From NCBI GenBank assembly GCA_014874175.1, contig JACWAD010000048.1:61222-125221 (forward strand): a stretch of 64,000 nucleotides of DNA, given 5' to 3'. Below, piece by piece: positions 30,340 through 39,909 of this stretch (positions within the stretch are counted from its first letter, which is position 1; every line of letters starts with the position of its first letter). Made by a program: the position numbers and the translations under genes. Below the pieces are notes generated by a model. The model had not been told where the DNA came from. It was given only the letters and a program-made list of their open reading frames with translations, and searched no databases. This DNA is from Thermoleophilia bacterium (GTDB lineage Bacteria > Actinomycetota > Thermoleophilia > BMS3ABIN01).

Positions 30340-30660
30340 TTAACGGTTCAGTGACAGGATGGAACGGTTCCCCGCCAGGGCAAGAAAAACTTCCTGAGTT
30401 AGCGGGGCCAGGATCAACCCGTGACTGCCCGTCTCGAGTGAAAGAATCCGGGGCGGGCCGCCAAGCTCTGCAGCCAGGGCCCCCGTGGCGGCCAGGGCCG
30501 AGGCGGAGTGAGCGGCCAGGGCTTCCATGTCGATGCCGCTGCCTGCTGAAACCACCAGCAGGCCGTCCCACGATACCAGTGCCGCCGCAGTGACAGATTC
30601 AATGTCGAGGTAGGGAGTAATAATTTCCGCCAATGAACGTTGTTTTTCCATGCCTGCCAT
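30340..30660 (-). CDS. Roadblock/LC7 (MglB-like) domain protein, translationally coupled to parB
   Basis: 106 aa; VTAAALVSWDGLLVVSAG ... ILSLETGSHGLILAPL pattern of Roadblock/LC7 fold; ATG overlaps parB TAA (TAATG). Confidence 0.7.
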   Translation of the reverse strand: MAGMEKQRSLAEIITPYLDIESVTAAALVSWDGLLVVSAGSGIDMEALAAHSASALAATGALAAELGGPPRILSLETGSHGLILAPLTQEVFLALAGNRSILSLNR

Positions 30661-31552
30661 TAACGGTTGTCTTCAAGAGAATCGATTATGCGGCGCAGTT
30701 CTTCATTGTTTCTGAACTCCATCTCAATGCGGCCCCCTCTGGCGCTCCAGCGGACTTTGACTGGCAGGCGAAAAGCTGAATAGAGAGCATCGGTTGCCTC
30801 ATCCATCAGTTCCTGGCCGGCAGGTATCGGGCTCGCCTCCCTGGCAGACTTGCGCTGCGGGGCCTCGCGTTTTACCCGTGCTTCCAGCTGCCGCACGGAC
30901 ATGTTGGCGGCAGCGGCTTTCGCAGCCAGGCGGCGCTGCCGGAGGCGATCCGGCACTGAAAGGAGGGCGCGCCCGTGACCTTCAGACAATCTGCCATGCT
31001 CGATAAGGGTTTGCACATCGTCCGGGAGGTCAAGCAACCGCAGGGTATTGGCTACTGCTGAGCGGCTGCGGCCCAGCTTGGCGGCCAGCTCTTCCTGCGT
31101 GATGCCGAAATCTTCCTGCAGGTTTGCGTAAGCCCGCGCCGCATCAATCGGATTTAAATCTTCCCGGCTCAGGTTTTCAATCAGGGCCAATTCCACGGAT
31201 TCGGCGTCGCCTGCGTCCCTGATCACGGCCGGGACTGTTTTCAGGCCGGCCATGCGCGCGGCGCGCCAGCGCCTCTCGCCGGCGATAATCTCAAAACTGC
31301 CGCCGGCGCGGCGCACGACTACCGGCTGCACAATGCCTACAGCCTTGATTGACGCCGCTAGTTCGGCGAGAGCCTCATCGCCGAAAGTCCGGCGCGGCTG
31401 CCCCGGATTTGAAACTATTTTATCGACAGCGATTTCCTGATATTGACCTGCAAGTTGCAAGTTGCCATTGTGGTTATTCACTTGTTGATTTTTATTCTGA
31501 TTTGTGCCAATCAAGGCCTCAAGTCCCCGGCCCAATCCCTTGCTGCTATTCA
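30660..31552 (-). CDS. parB: Chromosome partitioning protein ParB (Spo0J)
   Basis: GLGRGLEALI, ParB box IIAGERRWRAA, HTH ITQEELAAKLGRSRSAVANTLRLL; GTG start at 31552 after GGAGGTG, overlapping parA stop. Confidence 0.9.
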
Positions 31553-32337
31553 CGCTCGACCACCTCCGTGGCGAGATCGAAGTAAGCATCCGAACCGGCA
31601 CAGGTGGGATCATACCGCGATATCGGCTTGCCGTGGCTCGGAGCTTCGCTTAACCTGACATTGCGGGGAATGACTGTCTTGTAAATTAACTGCGGAAAAT
31701 GGGAACGGACCTGACTTACCACCTGGCTGGACAGATTGGTGCGGGCATCAAACATGGTCATCAGCAGGCCGGCGATCCTGAGGTTCGGGTTAAAGTTGCT
31801 CTGAACTGCAGATACAGTGGAAAGCAACTGTCCCAGTCCTTCCAAGGCGTAATATTCGCATTGGACCGGGATAATGATTTTGTCGGCTGCCACAAGGCCA
31901 TTCAGCGTGAGCAGGCTGAGAGAAGGCGGACAATCGATAAAGAGGTAATCAAAATCAGAAGAAATGCCCATGAGCGCCTTTGCTACGACAAATTCACGGT
32001 CTTCGCGGAGGGGAAGCTCAACCTCGGCGCCGGCGAGATGAGGCGTTGACGGGACCAGGAACAAGTGGGGCACTTGGGTGCCAATGATTGCTGATTCCAC
32101 GGGGGCGCCGACAGAGATGACATCATAGACAGTACGTGCGGTGCTTTCATGTATGCCTAGGCCGTGTGTTGCATTGCACTGAGCGTCGAGGTCGATGAGC
32201 AAAACGGTCGCACCTGCCTCGGCAAGACAAACGGCGGTGTTAATACAGGTTGTTGTCTTGCCTACGCCGCCTTTTTGGTTGGCAACTGCGTAGGTTTTAC
32301 CTAGACCCGCCCTCTCCCGAAATGAATTCGCCTGCAC
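31546..32337 (-). CDS. parA: Chromosome partitioning ATPase ParA (Soj)
   Basis: Deviant Walker A ANQKGGVGKTTT; 263 aa. Confidence 0.92.
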   Translation of the reverse strand: MQANSFRERAGLGKTYAVANQKGGVGKTTTCINTAVCLAEAGATVLLIDLDAQCNATHGLGIHESTARTVYDVISVGAPVESAIIGTQVPHLFLVPSTPHLAGAEVELPLREDREFVVAKALMGISSDFDYLFIDCPPSLSLLTLNGLVAADKIIIPVQCEYYALEGLGQLLSTVSAVQSNFNPNLRIAGLLMTMFDARTNLSSQVVSQVRSHFPQLIYKTVIPRNVRLSEAPSHGKPISRYDPTCAGSDAYFDLATEVVERE

Positions 32338-32391
32338 GAAGCAAATTTTATCAGATGAGCAGGATAGTGACCAGACAGAATTAACCAGGGA

Positions 32392-33084
32392 TTATGCGAG
32401 CGGCCTTTTTTTAGCCATGCCAGGCTTGCGTGGGAAGCGCGCCGGAGTCGGCCCTTCCTTTTTTATTAGCCAGACGTGCATGTTTCTGGCCTGATCGTAT
32501 GGATTTACAAGGGCAATGCGCTCGACGGACCCGTTCAGAGCCTGCGCCGCCAGCTGCGCCTTTTCCTCATCGCCCGGCTCTCTCTTGCCTCTCATCAGCA
32601 GGGCAAACCCCCCTGGGCGCGCCAGCGGTAGTGAATACTCGGTCGAAGCCGCAAGCTGCGCCACTGCCCTCGCCATTGAAAGGTCAAAAGAATCTCGCAT
32701 GTAAGAAGAGGCGGCATCTTCAGCGCGCATCCAAAGAACAGTGGCATTCTTAAGACCGAGTTCCCGGATGGCCCTTAACATAAAACCGCATTTCTTCCTG
32801 CTGGAGTCGATTAAGGTAAGATCAAGGCTGGGCCTGGCAATGGCAAGAGGAATTCCGGGAATCCCGGCGCCGCTGCCGATATCAACGGCATTGCCTGCAT
32901 TCACGACTTCAGGAAGGTCGAGAAGGACAAGACTGCTGCAAAGGAGAACATCCACGATTTCTGATTTGTCTTTGATAGAAGTGACGTTGGCATCACCCGC
33001 CGAATGCAGAAGGGACAAATATCTTTCCAGAAGCAGAAGCTTTTCGTCATTGAGGCCAAACCTAAGGAAGAGACGCCGCCACAT
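32392..33084 (-). CDS. rsmG: 16S rRNA (guanine527-N7)-methyltransferase RsmG (GidB)
   Basis: SAM motif DIGSGAGIPGIPLAIARP; position between mnmG and parA. Confidence 0.9.
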   Translation of the reverse strand: MWRRLFLRFGLNDEKLLLLERYLSLLHSAGDANVTSIKDKSEIVDVLLCSSLVLLDLPEVVNAGNAVDIGSGAGIPGIPLAIARPSLDLTLIDSSRKKCGFMLRAIRELGLKNATVLWMRAEDAASSYMRDSFDLSMARAVAQLAASTEYSLPLARPGGFALLMRGKREPGDEEKAQLAAQALNGSVERIALVNPYDQARNMHVWLIKKEGPTPARFPRKPGMAKKRPLA

Positions 33085-33085
33085 T

Positions 33086-35005
33086 TTATCTTTCCGGTCT
33101 TAAATAAAGAGAAAGAACGGAAATATCTGCGGGGGAAACGCCGGCTATACGTGAAGCCTGGCCCAGGTTGGAAGGGCGGAAGCGGGCCAGTTTTTCCCGG
33201 GCTTCTATCGTAATGCCCTGGAGATGCTCGAATATCATGTTTGTCGGTATTGGTGTTTTTTCGAGGGCGTTTGTGCGCCCGATTTCTGCCAGCTGGCGGT
33301 TAATGTATCCAGAGTACTTAATTTCAATTTCGGCCCGCCTGAGAATCCGGCTGTGCTCTGTCAGGGGGTGGTCCAGCAAGGGCAGAATATCGGCCATGGA
33401 GATCTCGGGACGTTTCAGCAATTGAGCCGCCGGTTGGGGTTCTGATAATGGGGCCGAGCCAATGGCGGCAAGTCGACGGTTTACATATTCGTCGGCAGGG
33501 ACCACCGTTTCTGATAAATTCGAAATCAGTTTTTCAAGATGAGCCTGGTCATTTGAAATTAAGGAAAGATCCTTATCTGCCACAAGGCCGAGGCGGTGGC
33601 CAAGAGATCCAAGCCTCGCATGCGCATTGTCGTGTCTGAGCATGAGGCGGTATTCGGCCCGGGACGTAAAAATGCGGTAGGGCTCATCCACTTCCTTTGT
33701 AACAAGGTCATCAATCAGCACGCCTATGTAGGCCTGGCTGCGCTTGAGGGTAAATGGAGAGTTGCCTTTGACAAAAAGGGCTGCGTTGATGCCAGCTATC
33801 AACCCTTGGGCTGCGGCCTCTTCATACCCCGAAGTGCCATTAATCTGGCCGGCTAGGAAAAGACCCGCAATTTTCTTGTTTTCCAGGGATAATTTCATTT
33901 GATTCGGAAAAATGTAGTCATATTCGACCGCATACCCGGGGCGAGTCAGGCGGGCTTGCTCAAGGCCCGGCGTTGCCCGGACAATTTTTTCCTGGACCCA
34001 GACCGGAAGGCTCGTCGTAAGGCCCTGTAAATACATCTCTTTCGTGTGACGTCCTTCAGGTTCAACAAAGACCGGGTGCCGGCTCCTGTCTGGAAAATTC
34101 ATAACCTTGCGGTCAATGGATGGACAGTAACGGGGGCCTTTACCGCTGACGGAGCCGCTTTTAATCGGGGAAAGATGGAGGTACTTTCGCACGACCTCAT
34201 GTGTTTTCTCCGTCGTGTAGGTGAGGTAACAGGGCATCTGAGGATGCCGATTTGGTTTTGAGAAGGGAGAAAATGTTGCGGGATTCTTGTCCCCGGGATC
34301 GATCTGCATTCTATCGGTCCGCAAGGACCGGGCATCAACGCGGGGAGGCGTTGCCGACTGGAACCTGCCGAGCTCAAGTCCTGCTTCAATCAGGCTTGAA
34401 GATAGCCCGCCCGCTGGCGGCTCCCCCATTCTGCCGGCCGGGAAAGAAAGAGCGCCGATCACAATTTTCCCCCGGAGAAAGGTGCCACAAGCGAGAATTA
34501 CAGTTTTTGCAGGGATAATACTGCCATCTATTAATTTGATGCCGTTAATTGTTTCACGTGAAACAATTATTTCCGTGGCGGTTGACTCCAGGATTTGCAG
34601 TAAGGGCTCCGAGATGAGAGCCCTTCTCATGTTGTCTTCATAAAGCTTTTTGTCTGTTTGCGCCCTCAGGGCCTGCACCGCGGGTCCCTTTCCCGTGTTC
34701 AGCATCTTCATCTGAATAAACGAACTGTCGGCATTCTTGCCCTGCTGGCCGCCGAGCGCGTCAATCTCGCGGGTTAGCTGGCCTTTTCCAATTCCACCCA
34801 CGGCTGGGTTGCAGGGCATAAGGGCGATCTTGTCAAGGTTAAGGGTAAGAAGAAGGGTCGGGCAGCCCATACGGGCGGCAGCCAGTGCTGCTTCACAGCC
34901 GGCGTGCCCGCCGCCCACAACCGCCACGTCAAACCGGGGTAACGCATTTGATTTGGTTTTACTGCTCATCCATTCACGTTCAGGAATCTGAACTCGGGCT
35001 TGCAT
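33086..35005 (-). CDS. mnmG: tRNA uridine 5-carboxymethylaminomethyl modification enzyme MnmG (GidA)
   Basis: FDVAVVGGGHAGCEAALAAARMG, CNPAVGGIGKG, GPRYCPSID, LTRPGYAVEYD, C-terminal MnmE-binding domain; start could be internal ATG at 34969. Confidence 0.95.
   Translation of the reverse strand: MQARVQIPEREWMSSKTKSNALPRFDVAVVGGGHAGCEAALAAARMGCPTLLLTLNLDKIALMPCNPAVGGIGKGQLTREIDALGGQQGKNADSSFIQMKMLNTGKGPAVQALRAQTDKKLYEDNMRRALISEPLLQILESTATEIIVSRETINGIKLIDGSIIPAKTVILACGTFLRGKIVIGALSFPAGRMGEPPAGGLSSSLIEAGLELGRFQSATPPRVDARSLRTDRMQIDPGDKNPATFSPFSKPNRHPQMPCYLTYTTEKTHEVVRKYLHLSPIKSGSVSGKGPRYCPSIDRKVMNFPDRSRHPVFVEPEGRHTKEMYLQGLTTSLPVWVQEKIVRATPGLEQARLTRPGYAVEYDYIFPNQMKLSLENKKIAGLFLAGQINGTSGYEEAAAQGLIAGINAALFVKGNSPFTLKRSQAYIGVLIDDLVTKEVDEPYRIFTSRAEYRLMLRHDNAHARLGSLGHRLGLVADKDLSLISNDQAHLEKLISNLSETVVPADEYVNRRLAAIGSAPLSEPQPAAQLLKRPEISMADILPLLDHPLTEHSRILRRAEIEIKYSGYINRQLAEIGRTNALEKTPIPTNMIFEHLQGITIEAREKLARFRPSNLGQASRIAGVSPADISVLSLYLRPER
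34547..34568. promoter_or_regulatory. parS centromere site (perfect 22-bp palindrome AATTGTTTCACGTGAAACAATT; core TGTTTCACGTGAAACA) inside mnmG
   Basis: Exact match to the Firmicutes/actinobacterial parS consensus tGTTtCAcGTGAAACa. Confidence 0.8.
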
Positions 35006-35079
35006 GCTTCTTGCCCCGTTTCGGCTTCCCGAAGGCCAGATCTCGACAAGCCCCTAGCAGTATTAACATTTCTGCTGAC

Positions 35080-35099
35080 CATCCTGGGTGAATCGGATG
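35080..35099. promoter_or_regulatory. 20-bp palindromic site CATCC-N10-GGATG (copy 1) upstream of mnmG
   Basis: CATCCTGGGTGAATCGGATG; second copy exactly 200 bp away. Confidence 0.35.
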
Positions 35100-35279
35100 A
35101 TCGCCGGTATTTTAACTGGCCGTCCAATTCTCAGTTTTATATATGTCATCCCGTTCGCTCCGCTCAGGGCAAGCTCTGAGGCGAAGCCGAATGATCCCGG
35201 TTAAAAAACCCGGATTCTTCGTCGCCGGAGCTTGCCTGGGTGAAGCTGAAGGGGCGGCTCAGAATGACAAATCATTGCT

Positions 35280-35299
35280 CATCCTGAGTAAATTGGATG
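35280..35299. promoter_or_regulatory. 20-bp palindromic site CATCC-N10-GGATG (copy 2), followed by 35-nt AT-rich tract
   Basis: CATCCTGAGTAAATTGGATG; flanking ~33 nt also ~80% identical to copy 1. Confidence 0.35.
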
Positions 35300-35333
35300 A
35301 TCAGTGTATTTTATCATTGTTTTTATTTTGGTA

Positions 35334-36398
35334 TTAAAATTTGGTTGTACAGGCAATGGTCACCGGCCTTGTTTTTCCGCAGGCAACGGCACGGCACAGC
35401 CTGGCGGCAATACTGTCAGGCTCAACCCTTGTGGCCGTCCTTGACTTGCCGGCCCGTAGTGAGGCATTCTTCCCTGCTATGGCTCCCAGGACGGCTGCTT
35501 CCGCAAAATAGCTGCAGCCGGCAGCCCTGCCGGCAAAAAAGAGCCCCGGGAGGCGCCCGGCTTCAAGGCTGGCGCCGACCTGCTTGACGGACAGGATCTG
35601 ATGATGGACGGCGTAGCCAGGCCGCGTCAACCATGGCTGCGGAAATTCGGAGCTGAGATTGCTCAGGGCAGACGCCCGGTTTCCGGCGAGCCTCGTACTT
35701 GTACCGTAAAGCTCACCCGGCACGACTTCAGGCAGCCATCGATCAGCGCCGGGGCCGCTTTTTGCTAAGCTTCTGGAGTCGAGATGAGGAGAGGAAACCG
35801 CCCGTACCCTCTCGGTGTTCACGCCAAGACCATCCAGGCAGCGGGCCAGGGCCTTGGCGGGAATCTCACTCCGGCGCCCGCCTGGGGAAAAAGAACCGCC
35901 TTCTTCTACGATCCCGCGCAAGAAGGTGCCAGCGGCTAGAACGATAGATGTTGCCATGAAGCTTTCGCCAAGGTTGGTGCCAGCAGTCCAGAATTTACCT
36001 GCCGGCTTGAGAGATGTGACAAGCGCCTGCCTGATTTCAACGTCTTCGGATTGCAGCGCCTCCTGATAGGCAAGACTGAGCTGGCGCCGGTCGGCTACCA
36101 GGGCCCCGGCGAAAGATCCGGGCGGGCATAATTCTTTTGTGCGAAGGATCCTGGGCAGCATGCCACCCATTTTGCCCAACTCTTCGATAAGCAGGTAACG
36201 AGGGTCGTCTTCACCCTCGGCCAGGACCGGGCTGCCCGGGTTAAGTCCGACGGTGTCGATGTTGATGCTTATACATAAGGATGAAGCGCCTGACCGCGCG
36301 GCTGCTGCCGACGCTTCACACCCCGCAGGTCCGCCACCGATGACCAGGACGTCGTAAACATTGTCACAATCGTTCTTATTTGCCAACACAGAATTCAC
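35334..36398 (-). CDS. Truncated MnmG/GidA-like FAD-binding protein (354 aa) lacking the insertion/catalytic-Cys region and C-terminal MnmE-binding domain
   Basis: YDVLVIGGGPAGCEASAAAARSG, AAGTFLRG, LTRPGYAVHHQ, LFFAGRAAGCSYFAEAAVLGAIAG align to MnmG motifs; CNPAIGG and RYCPS motifs absent; start overlaps mnmE stop. Confidence 0.7.
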   Translation of the reverse strand: MNSVLANKNDCDNVYDVLVIGGGPAGCEASAAAARSGASSLCISINIDTVGLNPGSPVLAEGEDDPRYLLIEELGKMGGMLPRILRTKELCPPGSFAGALVADRRQLSLAYQEALQSEDVEIRQALVTSLKPAGKFWTAGTNLGESFMATSIVLAAGTFLRGIVEEGGSFSPGGRRSEIPAKALARCLDGLGVNTERVRAVSSPHLDSRSLAKSGPGADRWLPEVVPGELYGTSTRLAGNRASALSNLSSEFPQPWLTRPGYAVHHQILSVKQVGASLEAGRLPGLFFAGRAAGCSYFAEAAVLGAIAGKNASLRAGKSRTATRVEPDSIAARLCRAVACGKTRPVTIACTTKF

Positions 36399-37752
36399 GG
36401 AAAATTTCGTCCAGCAGGTCTTCCATCATTTCCTCGCCCGTGATCTCACCCAGCGCCGTCAGCGCCGCGCGCAGCTCCTCTGAAATAATTTCTTCTCCCA
36501 GCCCCACCCGCAGGCCTTGCTGCGCCTTGAGGAGGCGCTCCGAAGCAGAGGCGAGCAGACGCTGATGGCGTTCCAGGGTTACCACGGGGCTTAAAGTGTG
36601 AGAGAAGGCTTCTCCTAAAACGAGGCGGGATATTTTTTCCTTCAGCTCGTTAAGTCCTTGACGCGTCAGGGCGGAAATTAGGACCGGCTGCGCCGGAAGC
36701 AGTCCCCGGTTAAATGATGGCGCGCGGCCGCGAAACAGGTCACATTTGTTAATTATGTAAATGGTCTTTTCCGGCAGGACCGAGGTAAGCAGGGCGCGGT
36801 CATGATCATCTTCCCGCCTGCTGCCGTCAAAAAGGCAGAGGATCAGATCTGCTTCCTTCAGCGCTTTGCGGCTGCGCTCAACGCCTATCTGTTCAACAAT
36901 GTCATCCGCAGGCGCCATGCCGGCTGTGTCAGTCAGTTGCAGGGGCACGCCGCCGACGTTGATGATCTCCTCAATGGTGTCGCGGGTAGTGCCAGGAATT
37001 TCCGTCACAATTGCCCTTTCACGCATCAGCATCGCATTGAGCAGGCTTGATTTGCCCACGTTCGGTTTGCCTACAATGGCGGTGCGGACACCCTGGCTCA
37101 GTATGCGGCCGGCAAAGGCAGACTCCGCCAGTTCCTCCAGGCACTTCTTGATCTGGGACAGGCGGGTTTCGGCTTCTTCCCGGTTGAGTTCTTCAATATC
37201 TTCATCGGAAAAATCCAGGCCAGCTTCCAGGGCGCCAAGCACAGACAGGACGCCGCGGCGAAGCGATTTTATCTCGGCAGAAAGAGACCCCTCCAGCTGT
37301 GACATTGCCAGCTTAAGCGCTGCCTCTGTCTTGGCGGATACAATCTGGGCGACGCTCTCGGCCTGGGCCAGGTCGATTCTGCCGTTTAAAAAAGCCCTGC
37401 GCGTGAATTCTCCCGGCGGCGCCAGTTCAGCGCCATGGTCCAAAAGCAGCGCCAGAATTTTTTTCTGGGCCACAGGTCCACCATGGCAGTTAACTTCCAC
37501 CATGTCTTCCCGCGTATATGTCCCGGGAGCCTTCATGACTGAAACCAGGACTTCGTCAATCACCTCCCCCGCCTCTGGGCTTACAATTCTGCCGTAGTGA
37601 AGGGTATGGGAGCCGGCTTGCTCAAGCCCGCACTTTCCCTGGAAAACGCCGCCACAAATAGTAATCGCCTCCTGGCCGGTCATGCGAACGATGCCAATGG
37701 CGCCGGCTCCCAGAGGTGTGGAGATTGCCGCTATTGTCGGGTAGTTCCGCAT
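36376..37752 (-). CDS. mnmE: tRNA modification GTPase MnmE (TrmE)
   Basis: MRNYPTIAAISTPLGAGAIGIVRMTG, G1 GKPNVGKSSLLN, G2 TTRD, C-terminal CVGK; supplied 741-aa ORF has spurious 283-aa N-terminal extension. Confidence 0.93.
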   Translation of the reverse strand: MRNYPTIAAISTPLGAGAIGIVRMTGQEAITICGGVFQGKCGLEQAGSHTLHYGRIVSPEAGEVIDEVLVSVMKAPGTYTREDMVEVNCHGGPVAQKKILALLLDHGAELAPPGEFTRRAFLNGRIDLAQAESVAQIVSAKTEAALKLAMSQLEGSLSAEIKSLRRGVLSVLGALEAGLDFSDEDIEELNREEAETRLSQIKKCLEELAESAFAGRILSQGVRTAIVGKPNVGKSSLLNAMLMRERAIVTEIPGTTRDTIEEIINVGGVPLQLTDTAGMAPADDIVEQIGVERSRKALKEADLILCLFDGSRREDDHDRALLTSVLPEKTIYIINKCDLFRGRAPSFNRGLLPAQPVLISALTRQGLNELKEKISRLVLGEAFSHTLSPVVTLERHQRLLASASERLLKAQQGLRVGLGEEIISEELRAALTALGEITGEEMMEDLLDEIFREFCVGK

Positions 37753-37774
37753 GGTGTGTATTATAACAACGGAT

Positions 37775-37802
37775 TTTGGACATTGGGCTTTGGATATTGG
37801 GC
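37775..37802. repeat. Tandem 14-nt direct repeat TTTGGAYATTGGGC x2 in mnmE/yyaL divergent promoter region
   Basis: Read directly: TTTGGACATTGGGC TTTGGATATTGGGC. Confidence 0.4.
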
Positions 37803-38061
37803 AAAAACCAAACCCATTTTTACTGAACATATAGTTATTCGGGAGAGGCTTGCCCTGAGTTTGCCTGTTTCCCCTTTCAAACAGGATGGTCAGCCTGGAT
37901 GTCGTTTGGCGCCTGGATTGTTTAAAATGTCCGGGTTGCGGCAAGCGAATGCTGGAGATCCGGCGATTATGAAAAAAGCGATGCTCTGCTTCAGCCTCCG
38001 GCGGCCGGATCTCGACAGCCCTTCGAGTTACTATATTTCTCAGGCTTCCCGGGAGAGTTGG

Positions 38062-39909
38062 ATGACTGGTAAAGGAAAGGAAAAGTTTATTTTCTCGCCC
38101 CGCCCAAACCAGGCGGCGCAAATCAGGTGGCGAGGGTGGAGCAGCCAGGCGCTGCGGCTGTCTCGCGAGCAGGGAAAACCAATCTTGCTGGTGATATCGG
38201 CCTCGTGGTGCCACTGGTGCCATGTTATGGACGAAACCTGTTTTTCTGACCCGGAGGTGATACAGTTGATCAACAGCAGATTCATACCCGTGCGTGTTGA
38301 CAGCGGTAGGAGGCCTGATATTAACAGCCGCTACAATCAGAGCGGCTGGCCAACGCTGGCATTTCTTACCCATGAAGGCGAGGTAGTTGCGAGCACCACG
38401 TATATTCCAACTGAGCAATTGAAGCGGCTGTTGACTGATATTGCCGATCTTTGCGGATCCAGCGCCAACAAGGTTAAGGAGGCCGTCCGGGAGATCCAGC
38501 GCCTGCGCCAGGAGCGCCCGCAGGCGCGGCCGGAGGAGCCGGGCCCGCAAGTCATATCCGACGTGCTCGAGGTTATGCGGCCGGAGGAGCCGGGCCCGCA
38601 AGTCATATCCGACGTGCTCGAGGTTATCGGGGAAAGTTATGACCGGGAATATGGCGGATTTGGCTGGGAGTCAAAATTCCCGTACGCCGACGCACTTGCC
38701 TTCCTGCTGACGACGCTTGCGGACGGCTATTTAGAGGCTGTTGACAATATGTTAAGAACAACGCTTGACGCCATGTCTGCCGGCGGCATGTACGACCGCG
38801 TGGAAGGGGGCTTTTTCCGGTATTCAACTGCAAGGGACTGGTCAGTTCCTCATTATGAAAAAATGCTGGCAGACAACGCCGCCTTGATGGCTGTTTACGC
38901 TAACGCATTTCTTTTAACCGGTGAGGAGGGCTACAAAAGTGTGGCCAAGGACGTCTGCTCTTATTTGCGCGCGGTGCTGCTTGACCGGCAAACGGGCGCT
39001 TTTGCCGGCAGCCAGGATGCGGATGAGCATGAGCATTATTATTCACTTGGCGCCGCAAAGCGGGCGAATAACAAAGCGCCGCGGCTGGACCGCGCGGTTT
39101 ATACGGATCAGAATGCGGCGGCCGCTTCGGCCCTGCTTCGGATGTTCCAGATATTTGACGATCCGGAGTATCGCAGTATGGCCGCAGCAGCGCTTGATTT
39201 TGTCTGGTGGCGGCTCTGGGACAGCGAATCGGGACCAAGCCATTATTATGAAGACGCAAAACCACGCTTAAGCGGGCAACTGGCCGATGCTTCCTCCCTC
39301 CTGTCGGCCTGCATGGATTCTTTCTTATGAGAGCGGCGCCGGCGAACTCTGGCTGGACAGGGCCATCCAGGCCGCGAAATGGCTGCTGGCAAGCCTTGAG
39401 GACAAGGAGAGCGGCGGCTTTTTTGATTGCTATAAGCCATTGGGCAATACCGGACTTCTGTCCGAGCGGGACAAACCAATAACAGAAAACAGCAATGCGG
39501 CCTCTGCCCTTATCCGCCTGGCCCAGTCAACCAGCATGCCAGTTTTTGGCGAGGCAGCGCGCCGGGCGCTGGCTTTTTTTGGCTCTACTTACAAGGGAAA
39601 GGCATAATAGCCGCCGGATATGCGGCTGCTGTACAACGCCTTCTGGAGCCGCCAGTGCGGGTGACGATTGTTGGTCCGGAAAGTTCCAAATCAACCAGGA
39701 TGATGATCGGCGCGGCGCACCGGGCCCGCATCCCCTTCCGTTCAGTGGAAGTGCTTGATCCGCGAACGCATGCCGAGGACCTGGAAGCTTCAGGTTTCGG
39801 ATATGCCGGCGAACCGGTGGCTTACATCTGTATCGGAACAAGCTGCCAGGCACCGGTAACCGACCCTGTTGTTCTCCCGGAACGGCTGGAAGGGAGCCGG
39901 CACCGGTAG
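38062..39909 (+). pseudogene. yyaL: Thioredoxin-domain protein YyaL/DUF255 (SPATA20-like) interrupted by two frameshifts (near 39320 and 39595)
   Basis: Three consecutive ORFs in different frames (38062-39330, 39287-39607, 39655-39909) all matching one family: ASWCHWCHVMDETCF thioredoxin motif, GGFFD..., C-terminal ICIGTSCQAPVTDP. Confidence 0.65.
38527..38628 (+). repeat. Perfect in-frame 51-bp tandem duplication (RPEEPGPQVISDVLEVM/I x2) inside yyaL-like gene
   Basis: Two adjacent 51-nt copies differing at 1 nt. Confidence 0.85.

What the first reader, a model, noticed from the sequence alone, without database searches (positions are those of the whole stretch)
35334..36398. Domain-minimised MnmG/GidA paralog sandwiched between mnmE and mnmG
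The 354-aa ORF retains the N-terminal FAD-binding GxGxxG (YDVLVIGGGPAGCEA) and the AGTFLRG, LTRPGYAV and LFFAGRAAG segments that align along MnmG. It lacks the CNPAIGG loop, the GPRYCPS catalytic-cysteine insertion region and the whole C-terminal MnmE-interaction domain. Its start overlaps the mnmE stop and it sits directly upstream of a full-length mnmG, so the locus reads mnmE - gidA-like - mnmG. It could be a regulatory pseudo-enzyme or an FAD-binding partner of the MnmEG tRNA-modification complex. It could also be a remnant of a tandem duplication that has been kept under selection, since its ORF is intact.
Basis: partly seen in the sequence, partly recalled or inferred. Interest (0 to 1): 0.7.

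Follow-up and report, generated by a model that had tools for sequence, protein, structure and literature searches.

The report
Short MnmG paralog inside mnmE–mnmG operon
Between the two genes for a universal tRNA-modifying enzyme pair (MnmE and MnmG) lies an intact, conserved gene for a stripped-down copy of MnmG that keeps the flavin-binding core but has lost the catalytic cysteines and the MnmE-docking domain. It is found only in some uncultured deep-branching Actinomycetota, and nobody has characterised it.

Summary
Window 35334-36398 (minus strand) encodes a 354-aa protein. Its only significant family match is MnmG/GidA, split into two pieces. Its predicted fold matches solved MnmG structures (TM 0.80-0.84), not TrmFO (0.56). 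It keeps the FAD-binding motifs. It lacks Cys47, E. coli residues about 214-288 (the GPRYCPS motif with Cys277), and the C-terminal helical domain.

It is not a relic. In 16 GTDB species genomes plus metagenome contigs, every ortholog complete in its contig is an intact ORF, always mnmE–short gene–mnmG–rsmG–parA–parB. dN/dS is 0.18-0.19, against 0.06-0.14 for mnmE and mnmG. The family forms its own clade (bootstrap 200/200) and never groups with the adjacent mnmG, so the duplication is old or fast-diverging. Former active-site positions carry new, near-invariant residues.

More distant short forms sit after mnmE in four other contigs. One of these lineages is Humimicrobia/Hydromicrobia-like.

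Function is untested. My best inference is a flavin-binding accessory partner of MnmG that cannot make cmnm5U itself. A separate flavoenzyme acting on the same tRNA pathway is a serious rival. No specific family model or paper was found. I rate it a new variant of a known kind, of moderate-to-good interest.

The parts
36376..37752 (-). mnmE (458 aa). Canonical tRNA-modification GTPase ending in the FC(V/I/L)GK motif (REFCVGK).
   Evidence: The translation is. The start was set by alignment to orthologs, which are 66-82% identical over residues 1-458. The start codon was checked. Orthologs carry the Pfam domains TrmE_N, MnmE_helical and MMR_HSR1. The C-terminal motif is described in PMC12397908.
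35334..36398 (-). The short MnmG-like gene (354 aa): an FAD-binding core plus remnants of the two insertion domains. Its start overlaps the mnmE stop by 23 nt.
   Evidence: The AF2 model has pLDDT 85.2 and pTM 0.87. Its best structural matches are MnmG chains, at TM 0.80-0.84 normalised to the query.
36312..36356 (-). Residues 15-29, YDVLVIGGGPAGCEA: the dinucleotide (FAD) binding motif GxGxxGxEA.
   Evidence: G21, G23, P24, G26, E28 and A29 are invariant in the 23-member family alignment. They correspond to E. coli G13, G15 and E20.
36210..36245 (-). Residues 52-63, LNPGSPVLAEGE: the counterpart of the MnmG loop M(P/S)CNPA(I/V)GG, with Cys47 changed to Gly, Asn48 to Ser and the GG pair lost.
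   Evidence: Cys47 is C in 40 of 40 MnmG sequences, and A or G in 31 of 31 members of the window's family.
35859..35936 (-). Residues 155-180: AAGTFLRG and PGGRRSEIP, which are retained MnmG motifs (E. coli G156/T157 and G173/R174).
   Evidence: G157, T158, F159, G173 and G174 are invariant in the 23-member alignment, and R175 is nearly invariant (R in 30 of 31).
35721..35777 (-). Residues 208-226: the junction where E. coli MnmG residues about 214-288 are missing. The lost part belongs to insertion domain 2 and includes MnmG-specific motif 1 (GPRYCPS) with Cys277, Lys283 and Arg286.
   Evidence: The family profile aligns to E. coli MnmG 5-213 and 289-417 only. See also the alignment and the residue table. 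Domain limits come from PMC12397908.
35493..35633 (-). Residues 256-302: WLTRPGYAVHH and LFFAGRAAGCSYFAEAA. These are the MnmG motifs VRPGYAIEYD and FFAGQINGTxGYEEAAAQG in remodelled form (Tyr345 to His, Gln370 to Arg, Asn372 to Ala, Thr375 to Cys or Ser).
   Evidence: In the window's family the counts are R at the Gln370 position in 31 of 31, H at Tyr345 in 28 of 31, A at Asn372 in 29 of 31, and C at Thr375 in 22 of 31. W256 and R259 are invariant.
35337..35372 (-). Residues 343-354, TRPVTIACTTKF: a C-terminal tail that aligns with the MnmG segment EPYRMFTSR (Arg427 is kept). Most relatives end in RPVTVRxxxxGC instead.
35006..35333 (-). A 328-bp spacer between the short gene and mnmG. It is much longer than in any ortholog and contains a 23-nt direct repeat 200 bp apart.
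   Evidence: There is no Rfam match.
33086..35005 (-). Full-length canonical mnmG (639 aa) with Cys47, GPRYCPS and both C-terminal helical domains.
   Evidence: TIGR00136 scores 789 bits against a cut-off of 525. PF01134, PF21680 and PF13932 all match. Motifs were checked.
30660..33084 (-). rsmG (32392..33084), parA (31546..32337) and parB (30660..31613): the conserved downstream part of the gene cluster.

Best explanation
The ORF is a real, expressed-looking gene for an old, fast-evolving paralog of MnmG that has been kept as a third gene of the mnmE–mnmG cluster in some deep-branching, uncultured Actinomycetota.

**What the protein is.** It is the FAD-binding core of MnmG with trimmed insertion domains. 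It most likely still binds a flavin. It cannot carry out the MnmG reaction (cmnm5U34 synthesis), because it lacks both essential cysteines, the motif that receives the MnmE C-terminal helix, and the helical domain that docks MnmE and holds the tRNA.

**How it most likely works (inferred).** I propose it is made together with MnmE and MnmG through translational coupling. I further propose it acts as an accessory partner of MnmG, pairing with an MnmG protomer through the conserved core. This would resemble the truncated, inactive paralog TsaB pairing with TsaD. The result would fix or tune the asymmetry that the MnmG dimer already shows: one FAD, one MnmE and one tRNA per dimer.

**Shown here:** gene integrity, synteny, selection, the pattern of domains and residues, and the fold.
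**Inferred:** FAD binding, association with MnmG, and the role.
For: - **Identity and fold.** The only significant family is GIDA/MnmG. The family profile hits solved MnmG chains at E about 1e-55. The AF2 model (pLDDT 85) superposes on MnmG at TM 0.80-0.84.
- **Real gene.** 16 GTDB species genomes plus metagenome contigs carry it. Every ortholog complete in its contig is an intact ORF of 330-466 aa.
- **Selection.** dN/dS is 0.18-0.19 where dS is 0.57-0.67, against 0.06-0.14 for mnmE and mnmG.
- **Link to MnmEG.** In every locus mnmE lies directly upstream, with overlapping or abutting stop and start codons. Where the contig allows, mnmG–rsmG–parA–parB follow downstream. More distant short forms (314-365 aa) also follow mnmE in four further contigs, and in three of those mnmG comes next.
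- **Cannot be an MnmG.** Cys47 is A or G, and Cys277, Lys283 and Arg286 are deleted. PF21680 and PF13932 are absent. E. coli C47A and C277A variants make no cmnm5U, although they still reduce FAD (PMC10723064).
- **FAD binding plausible.** G13, G15, E20, G156/T157, A368/G369, G373 and E379 equivalents are invariant or nearly so.
- **Partner rather than tRNA enzyme.** Most family members are acidic (pI 4.7-6), whereas the MnmG core is basic (pI 9.4-9.5). The MnmE-contact patch at E. coli R82-V92 is shortened by about 10 residues.
- **MnmG asymmetry.** The MnmG dimer binds one FAD and one MnmE in the α2β2 complex, and a single tRNA (PMC12397908 and PMC4027165).
Against: - No test of protein-protein contact could be run.
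- The residues of the MnmG dimer interface could not be obtained, so their conservation was not checked.
- Former active-site positions are not drifting. They carry new near-invariant residues: Arg for Gln370, His for Tyr345, Ala for Asn372, Cys for Thr375, plus invariant Trp256 and Glu229. That is more typical of a working ligand or catalytic site than of a passive scaffold.
- Arg174, Arg338 and Arg427 equivalents are kept, which could mean it still handles a nucleotide substrate.
- The window's own protein is basic (pI 8.9), lacks the C-terminal GC of most relatives, and deviates at 15 of 111 strongly conserved family positions.
- In one locus (L056) no mnmG follows the short gene.
Confidence: 0.4

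Rival explanations
1. It is an independent flavoenzyme that has taken on a new reaction in the same pathway. It would use the retained flavin pocket and uridine-side residues of MnmG but different catalytic residues. Candidate reactions are:
- oxidative removal of the glycine-derived part of cmnm5U to give nm5U, which is the job of the MnmC oxidase domain in E. coli;
- another C5 side-chain conversion;
- supplying reduced FAD.
For: - New, near-invariant residues sit at former active-site positions: Arg291, His266, Ala293, Cys295/296, Trp256, Glu229 and Asp224.
- Arg174, Tyr308 (partly), Arg338, Tyr341 and Arg427 equivalents are retained.
- Many members carry a Cys next to the flavin motif and a C-terminal ...GC, which could replace the lost cysteine pair.
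- MnmG cysteine mutants still reduce FAD with NADH (PMC10723064).
- Tight operon linkage with mnmE and mnmG.
- Non-orthologous replacements of MnmC steps are known in other bacteria (titles and abstracts listed).
Against: - The domain that binds tRNA in MnmG is missing, and most members are acidic.
- The region once proposed to bind NADH (motif 1) is deleted.
- The C-terminal Cys is not conserved in the window's own subclade.
- The gene evolves 2-3 times faster than mnmG at the protein level.
- No methyltransferase or other xm5U-pathway gene was seen in the 20 window ORFs scanned.
Confidence: 0.3
2. It is a negative regulator. By pairing with MnmG, or by capturing MnmE or FAD, the catalytically dead copy would lower or gate MnmEG activity, acting as a dominant-negative protomer.
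For: The structural facts are the same as for the partner model: core kept, catalytic residues and MnmE-docking parts lost. The acidic surface is opposite in charge to the MnmG core.
Against: The gene is co-oriented and translationally coupled with the enzyme genes it would inhibit. That gives fixed co-production rather than conditional control. No regulatory element was found.
Confidence: 0.1
3. It is a decaying duplicate of mnmG with no function, whose ORF happens still to be open.
For: It evolves faster than its neighbours: 59-61% identity where mnmE and mnmG are 79-82%. dN/dS is 0.26-0.33 in the window's own subclade, though dS there is about 1. That subclade also deviates at more of the conserved family positions.
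Against: - Across the family, which reaches down to 37% identity to the window protein, every ortholog complete in its contig has an open frame of 330-466 aa.
- dN/dS is 0.18-0.19 in unsaturated pairs.
- 35 columns are invariant across 23 members.
- The position and the start overlap with mnmE are conserved.
- The confident fold prediction is compact.
Confidence: 0.04
4. It belongs to a different, already known FAD enzyme family: TrmFO, the 232-aa Thermus 'GidA-related protein' (PDB 2CUL), a halogenase, or an amine oxidase.
For: There are weak partial hits. TrmFO NF003739 scores 26 bits over residues 274-330. DAO PF01266 scores 27.9 bits. 2CUL matches over the first 40 residues.
Against: - All these hits are far below the family cut-offs (26 against 262 bits for TrmFO).
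- Structural matches are TM 0.56 for TrmFO, 0.52 for 2CUL and 0.5 or less for oxidases, against 0.80-0.84 for MnmG.
- The family profile hits MnmG at about 1e-55, TrmFO at 3e-10 and 2CUL at 9e-8.
Confidence: 0.02

Closest known systems
MnmG / GidA (tRNA uridine-5-carboxymethylaminomethyl(34) synthesis enzyme; Pfam PF01134, NCBIfam TIGR00136; PDB 3CES, 2ZXI, 3CP8, 9HIP)
   Same: - The Rossmann-type FAD-binding domain and the topology of both insertion domains are shared (TM 0.80-0.84).
- The motifs GxGxxGxEA, GTFL, GGRxGE, PEG/PDG...E.Y, TRxxY and FxAG...G..Y.EAA..G are shared.
- It is encoded next to mnmE.
   Different: - 354 aa instead of about 620-640.
- Cys47, Asn48, G52/G53 and T199-P202 are replaced.
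- E. coli residues 214-288, with GPRYCPS, Cys277, Lys283 and Arg286, are deleted.
- There is a deletion of about 10 residues in the MnmE-contact patch of insertion domain 1.
- The whole C-terminal helical domain after about residue 432 is missing.
- Gln370 is Arg, Asn372 is Ala and Tyr345 is His.
- It scores 109 bits against the 525-bit equivalog cut-off.
TrmFO (small 'Gid' protein; folate/FAD-dependent tRNA m5U54 methyltransferase; PDB 3G5Q)
   Same: It is a shorter relative of MnmG that lacks the MnmE-docking domain. It shares the FAD core and the C-terminal FAD motif region.
   Different: Sequence and fold similarity are far weaker than to MnmG (26 bits against a 262-bit cut-off; TM 0.56). 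TrmFO has its own folate-binding insertion domain and catalytic cysteines, and is not encoded between mnmE and mnmG.
GidA-related protein TTHA1897 of Thermus thermophilus (PDB 2CUL, 232 aa, function unknown)
   Same: It is another naturally minimised GidA-like FAD-binding protein.
   Different: Only the first 40 residues or so match by sequence (E = 9e-8), and TM is 0.52 normalised to the query. 2CUL lacks the insertion-domain remnants that the window protein keeps.
TsaB–TsaD (truncated inactive paralog paired with the catalytic subunit in t6A tRNA modification): an analogy of mechanism only, from general knowledge
   Same: A shortened, catalytically dead paralog of a tRNA-modification enzyme, encoded in the same genome. 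It serves as the dimer partner of the active paralog.
   Different: The protein family is unrelated. For the window protein the pairing is only a hypothesis, and no interaction was tested.
MnmC oxidase domain (FAD-dependent conversion of cmnm5s2U to nm5s2U): a functional analogy only
   Same: It is a flavoprotein of the same broad two-dinucleotide-binding-domain fold class, and it acts on the product of MnmEG.
   Different: The Pfam DAO match sits exactly at its cut-off (27.9 bits over residues 53-163). No activity is known, so this is a lead and not a classification.

Membership tests
MnmG (NCBIfam TIGR00136 equivalog) | Whole-protein score at or above the curated cut-off (524.85 bits). | tested here: not met
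   It scores 108.8 bits. The neighbouring true mnmG scores 789.1 bits.
MnmG (NCBIfam TIGR00136 equivalog) | Pfam GIDA domain (PF01134) present. | tested here: met
   It scores 129.6 bits against a cut-off of 22.1. The match is in two pieces: profile positions 1-203, then the C-terminal part. The middle of the profile is not matched.
MnmG (NCBIfam TIGR00136 equivalog) | N-terminal FAD dinucleotide-binding motif (E. coli G13, G15, E20). | tested here: met
   The sequence is GGGPAGCEA, and the motif is invariant across the family.
MnmG (NCBIfam TIGR00136 equivalog) | Essential Cys47 and Asn48 in the CNP loop. | tested here: not met
   The window protein has Gly55 and Ser56. The family has A or G at the Cys47 position in 31 of 31 members, while 40 of 40 MnmG sequences have C and N. 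The essentiality of Cys47 comes from PMC12397908 Table S3 and PMC10723064.
MnmG (NCBIfam TIGR00136 equivalog) | MnmG-specific motif 1 (GPRYCPS, E. coli 273-287) with essential Cys277. | tested here: not met
   The region is deleted in all 31 members of the window's family and all 16 of the more distant short forms.
MnmG (NCBIfam TIGR00136 equivalog) | C-terminal helical domain that docks MnmE and binds tRNA (PF21680 and PF13932). | tested here: not met
   Neither Pfam family matches. The alignment ends at about E. coli residue 432.
MnmG (NCBIfam TIGR00136 equivalog) | Three-dimensional fold of the FAD and insertion domains. | tested here: met
   Foldseek gives E = 1.6e-28 and TM 0.80-0.84 (normalised to the query) against 9HIP, 9HIQ, 3CP8, 2ZXH and 3CES.
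MnmG (NCBIfam TIGR00136 equivalog) | Binds FAD, forms a complex with MnmE and makes cmnm5U34. | not testable with these tools
   These are biochemical properties. Only motif-level inference is possible.
TrmFO (NF003739 / TIGR00137) | Whole-protein score above the cut-off (262 / 428.65 bits) and a full-length alignment. | tested here: not met
   It scores 26.1 and 15.7 bits, over residues 270-330 only. TM to 3G5Q/3G5R/3G5S is 0.56.
Thermus GidA-related protein (PDB 2CUL) | Sequence and fold similarity over the whole protein. | tested here: not met
   The profile match covers only query positions 11-50 (E = 8.6e-8). TM is 0.52 normalised to the query.
Short MnmG-like family of deep Actinomycetota (unnamed; defined here) | 330-466 aa; FAD core kept; Cys47, motif 1 and the helical domain lost; R-A-A-G in place of Q-I-N-G; encoded directly after mnmE. 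| tested here: met
   The window protein is 37-61% identical to 22 cluster representatives, at 182-426 bits, with a sharp drop to 118 bits or less for true MnmG. About 17 clusters at 50% identity were found among 1.84 billion representatives. Synteny is shown. The family is monophyletic in 200 of 200 bootstraps.

The most novel reading that the evidence does not exclude
The mnmE–mnmG system of some deep-branching Actinomycetota is a three-protein machine. In one version, the short paralog replaces one protomer of the MnmG dimer, giving a built-in asymmetric MnmG–MnmG′ pair in which one side does the chemistry with MnmE and the other has a different task. In the other version, it is a new flavoenzyme that uses relocated cysteines (next to the flavin motif and at the C-terminus) to perform a different reaction on the wobble uridine. 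Either would be a previously undescribed component of a universally conserved tRNA-modification pathway.
Probability: 0.3. Interest if true: 0.75.

Novelty: new variant of a known kind. Interest (0 to 1): 0.55.

Why it matters
MnmE–MnmG (GTPBP3–MTO1 in human mitochondria) has been treated as a two-protein system. How the two MnmG protomers divide the work is an open question raised again by the 2025 cryo-EM structures, which show one FAD, one MnmE and one tRNA per dimer.

A naturally occurring half-MnmG, kept under selection and co-encoded with both partners, is a ready-made probe of that asymmetry. If it pairs with MnmG, it shows which parts of the second protomer are dispensable. If it is an enzyme, it adds a new step or a new chemistry to wobble-uridine modification.

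It also matters for annotation. JGI names such proteins as MnmG and NCBI calls them a generic 'FAD-dependent oxidoreductase'. Neither is adequate.

Tried and rejected
- **Co-folding test.** I built 10 ortholog pairs of the short protein, a linker and the MnmG core (alignment A3) to see whether AF2 docks them.
- **AlphaFold database search.** The afdb50 fold library was not available.
- **MnmG dimer interface.** I looked for its residues in the held literature, to check whether they are conserved. Shi 2009 is not held and the held papers give no residue list.
- **Apparent truncated ortholog in L030.** It is a 100-N assembly gap, not decay.
- **The 230-aa ORF after the short gene in L056.** I tested whether it is a detached MnmG helical domain. 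It has no Pfam hit and no similarity to MnmG.
- **Co-evolution clue.** The neighbouring MnmG has (S/T)ATPPR instead of TGTPPR. All 120 Actinomycetota-type MnmGs sampled have TATPPR, so this is a lineage trait and not evidence of co-adaptation.
- **The spacer.** Rfam and promoter/terminator scans of the 328-bp spacer and the gene found nothing meaningful.
- **Literature.** Searches for MnmG paralogs, MnmG-like or GidA-like short proteins found no description of this family.
- **Other pathway genes.** A scan of 20 other window ORFs found only housekeeping genes and no xm5U-pathway genes.
- **Single or multiple origin.** The neighbour-joining tree cannot decide whether the window's family and the more distant short forms share one origin (97/200 bootstraps). 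Long-branch attraction is likely.
Full report
**1.

All genes discussed are on the minus strand. The order is mnmE (36376..37752, 458 aa, ending in the canonical FCVGK), the 354-aa ORF (35334..36398), a 328-bp spacer, full-length mnmG (33086..35005, 639 aa), rsmG, parA and parB. The ORF finder lists mnmE as 741 aa, but alignment to orthologs puts its start at 37752.

The 354-aa ORF starts with GTG at 36398 and overlaps the mnmE stop codon by 23 nt.

- Its only significant Pfam family is GIDA (PF01134, 129.6 bits), matched in two pieces.
- Against NCBIfam's MnmG equivalog it reaches 109 bits, where the cut-off is 525. The neighbouring mnmG scores 789.
- BLASTP against that neighbour gives 31% identity over residues 15-211 and 49% over 254-314.

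**2. Anatomy relative to MnmG**

I took the E. coli domain limits and the list of functionally important residues from the 2025 cryo-EM paper and its Table S3 (PMC12397908). I then aligned E. coli MnmG, 40 other MnmGs, 31 members of the window's family and 16 more distant short forms.

Kept:
- the FAD motif (G13, G15, E20);
- K56 (as invariant Arg), G67 and G68;
- G156/T157/F158, G173/R174;
- E306, Y308 (partly), R338 and Y341;
- A368/G369, G373, Y377 and E379;
- R427 (invariant), within a roughly 35-residue tail that aligns with E. coli 405-432.

Lost:
- Cys47 (A or G in 31 of 31), Asn48, G52/G53 and T199-P202;
- the whole stretch E. coli 214-288, with motif 1 (GPRYCPS), Cys277, Lys283 and Arg286;
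- about 10 residues of the R82-V92 patch that touches MnmE;
- everything after about residue 432, that is, the helical domain that docks MnmE and binds tRNA.

Cys47 and Cys277 are each required for cmnm5U formation. The Cys-to-Ala variants still reduce FAD (PMC10723064). The protein therefore cannot be a second MnmG.

Several former active-site positions are not drifting. They have new, near-invariant residues: Arg for Gln370 (31/31), Ala for Asn372 (29/31), His for Tyr345 (28/31), Cys for Thr375 (22/31) and Asp for Glu300 (30/31). Trp256 and Glu229 are invariant.

**3. Fold**

An AF2 model built from the 23-member family alignment is confident (pLDDT 85.2, pTM 0.87). Foldseek against the PDB puts MnmG chains first (E = 1.6e-28, TM 0.80-0.84 normalised to the query). 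Well below come the 232-aa Thermus GidA-related protein 2CUL (0.52), TrmFO (0.56) and amine oxidases (0.5 or less). A family-profile search of PDB sequences gives the same order: MnmG about 1e-55, TrmFO 3e-10, 2CUL 9e-8.

**4. It is a conserved gene, not a relic**

- **Family size.** A search of 5.8 billion proteins found 22 related clusters of 280-466 aa (one, P0023 at 280 aa, is a fragment), at 37-61% identity and 182-426 bits. True MnmGs follow after a sharp drop, at 118 bits or less. A profile search of 1.84 billion representatives found about 17 clusters of this family at the 50% identity level.
- **Distribution.** A scan of GTDB species genomes found it in 16 genomes. All are MAGs labelled Actinomycetes, Thermoleophilia, Gaiellales or Actinomycetota.
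- **Synteny.** In every locus mnmE lies immediately upstream, with stop and start codons overlapping or abutting in most loci. Wherever the contig continues, mnmG, rsmG, parA and parB follow.
- **Integrity.** Every ORF complete in its contig is intact, at 330-466 aa. The single apparent truncation (L030) is a 100-N gap. The second refutation test, disabling mutations in orthologs, is therefore also negative.
- **Selection.** By Nei-Gojobori, dN/dS is 0.18-0.19 in the three least saturated pairs (dS 0.57-0.67). In the same genome pairs it is 0.07-0.11 for mnmE, 0.06-0.14 for mnmG, 0.18 for rsmG in the one of these pairs where it could be computed (0.10-0.20 more widely) and 0.03-0.05 for parA. 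For the window against its two nearest relatives it is 0.26-0.33, with dS about 1.
- **Rate.** The protein evolves two to three times faster than MnmG: 59-61% identity where MnmE and MnmG are 79-82%.

Selection is therefore purifying but relaxed.

**5. Origin**

In a neighbour-joining tree of 349 shared columns, the window's family is monophyletic in 200 of 200 bootstraps. It never groups with its neighbouring MnmGs (0/200). All full-length MnmGs form a clade that excludes the short forms in 156 of 200. This is not a recent tandem duplicate. It is either an old paralog or one that diverged very fast, and long-branch effects prevent a firmer statement.

**6. A wider pattern**

The representative search also returned more distant short forms of 314-365 aa, plus two 453/454-aa intermediates that keep the length of insertion domain 2 but have a degenerate motif 1. 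They too lack Cys47, motif 1 and the helical domain.

Of the four contexts I could fetch:
- three read (yidC–jag–)mnmE–short gene–mnmG (L009, L010, L055);
- one reads mnmE–short gene–unrelated genes (L056).

The MnmG of L055 is closest to MnmGs named Actinomycetota, Candidatus Humimicrobia and Candidatus Hydromicrobia. At least that lineage is therefore also a deep-branching actinomycetotal group. Whether these short forms share one origin with the window's family is unresolved (97/200).

**7. Mechanism**

What is shown:
- The gene is linked to mnmE and mnmG as tightly as two genes can be.
- It keeps the flavin-binding core.
- It lacks what MnmG needs for catalysis, for MnmE docking and for holding tRNA.

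What I infer as most likely (confidence 0.4): it is a flavin-binding accessory partner of MnmG, in the way truncated, inactive TsaB partners TsaD. The points in favour are:
- the MnmG dimer is already functionally asymmetric, with one FAD and one MnmE in the α2β2 complex and one tRNA per dimer (PMC12397908, PMC4027165);
- the dimerising core is what the short protein retains;
- most family members are acidic (pI 4.7-6) while the MnmG core is basic (9.4-9.5).

The main rival (0.3) is an independent flavoenzyme with a new reaction in the same pathway, such as an MnmC-oxidase-like step or flavin reduction. It is favoured by the newly conserved residues in the old active site, by the retained Arg174, Arg338 and Arg427 equivalents, and by the cysteines that many members carry beside the flavin motif and at the extreme C-terminus (...RPVTVRxxxxGC).

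That C-terminal Cys is absent from the window's own subclade. This subclade also deviates at 15-21 of about 110 strongly conserved positions, so it may be under somewhat different constraint. A negative-regulator role (0.1), a decaying duplicate (0.04) and membership of another known family (0.02) are less likely.

I also could not obtain the MnmG dimer-interface residues from the held literature.

**8. Comparison with what is known, and novelty**

The protein works within, and descends from, the MnmG family, but it fails four defining features of MnmG: the equivalog score, Cys47, motif 1 with Cys277, and the helical domain. It should not be filed as MnmG.
- It is not TrmFO, and it is not the Thermus 2CUL protein.
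- No NCBIfam or Pfam model is specific for it.
- Sources label it 'FAD-dependent oxidoreductase' or, wrongly, MnmG.
- Full-text searches found no paper describing a short MnmG paralog in the mnmE–mnmG cluster.

I rate it a new variant of a known kind, with interest 0.55. It is a clear, reproducible and uncharacterised third gene in a universally conserved pathway. It bears directly on the open question of MnmG dimer asymmetry. Its distribution is narrow, however, and its function is still inferred.

Noticed in passing
window 38086-39906 (+): The DsbH-like thioredoxin-domain gene that diverges from mnmE is 58% identical to the 604-aa homolog in L001. It is broken into three ORFs (37597..39330, 39287..39607, 39655..39909) by two frameshifts about 300 nt apart. 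This is either a pseudogene or an assembly error.
   Followed up: partly
window 38527-38625 (+): Inside the same gene there is an exact 16-aa duplication, RPEEPGPQVISDVLEV twice, with the two copies separated by one residue.
   Followed up: no
window 35006-35333: The spacer between the short gene and mnmG is 328 bp here. In all the other loci of this family the gap is far shorter (roughly 10-120 bp, estimated) or the two genes overlap. It holds a 23-nt direct repeat 200 bp apart (35080-35102 and 35280-35302, 87% identical), which suggests a small insertion or duplication. There is no Rfam hit.
   Followed up: partly
family alignment A1; P0006-P0022: 16 of 24 members of the window's family end in ...RPVTVRxxxxGC, with the Cys as the last residue. 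The window's subclade (P0001-P0003) has lost this ending. Many members also have Cys in place of MnmG Thr375, next to the flavin motif.
   Followed up: partly
P0276 and P0279 (453 and 454 aa): These are intermediate MnmG-like forms. They keep the full length of insertion domain 2 but have a degenerate motif 1 (ADFLPI / INFLPI instead of GPRYCPS), lack Cys47, and stop early in the helical domain. They may be a snapshot of stepwise reduction.
   Followed up: no
L056 5023-6781 (GCA_964609495.1): In this locus a 348-aa short MnmG-like gene follows mnmE, but no mnmG comes next. Instead there is a 230-aa protein with no family match, followed by a protein kinase. Whether that genome has an mnmG elsewhere is unknown.
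   Followed up: partly
L005 6001-7401 (P0022, 466 aa); also P0021 and P0020: These orthologs carry a low-complexity repeated insertion (GGFDTDAVARDGSAQ-like units, EGRVLV repeats) in the insertion-domain-1 region of the short protein. They also have a proline- and glutamine-rich N-terminal extension.
   Followed up: no
window 33086-35005 and loci L001-L030: All Actinomycetota-type MnmGs sampled have (S/T)ATPPR, where other sampled bacteria mostly have TGTPPR (90 of the 110 where the motif was found). T199 and G200 are reported as functionally important in E. coli. This is a lineage trait, seen in 120 of 120.
   Followed up: yes
window 36376-38601 (-): The ORF finder reports a 741-aa ORF for mnmE because the frame is open far upstream. 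The real gene is the last 458 codons, starting at 37752.
   Followed up: yes
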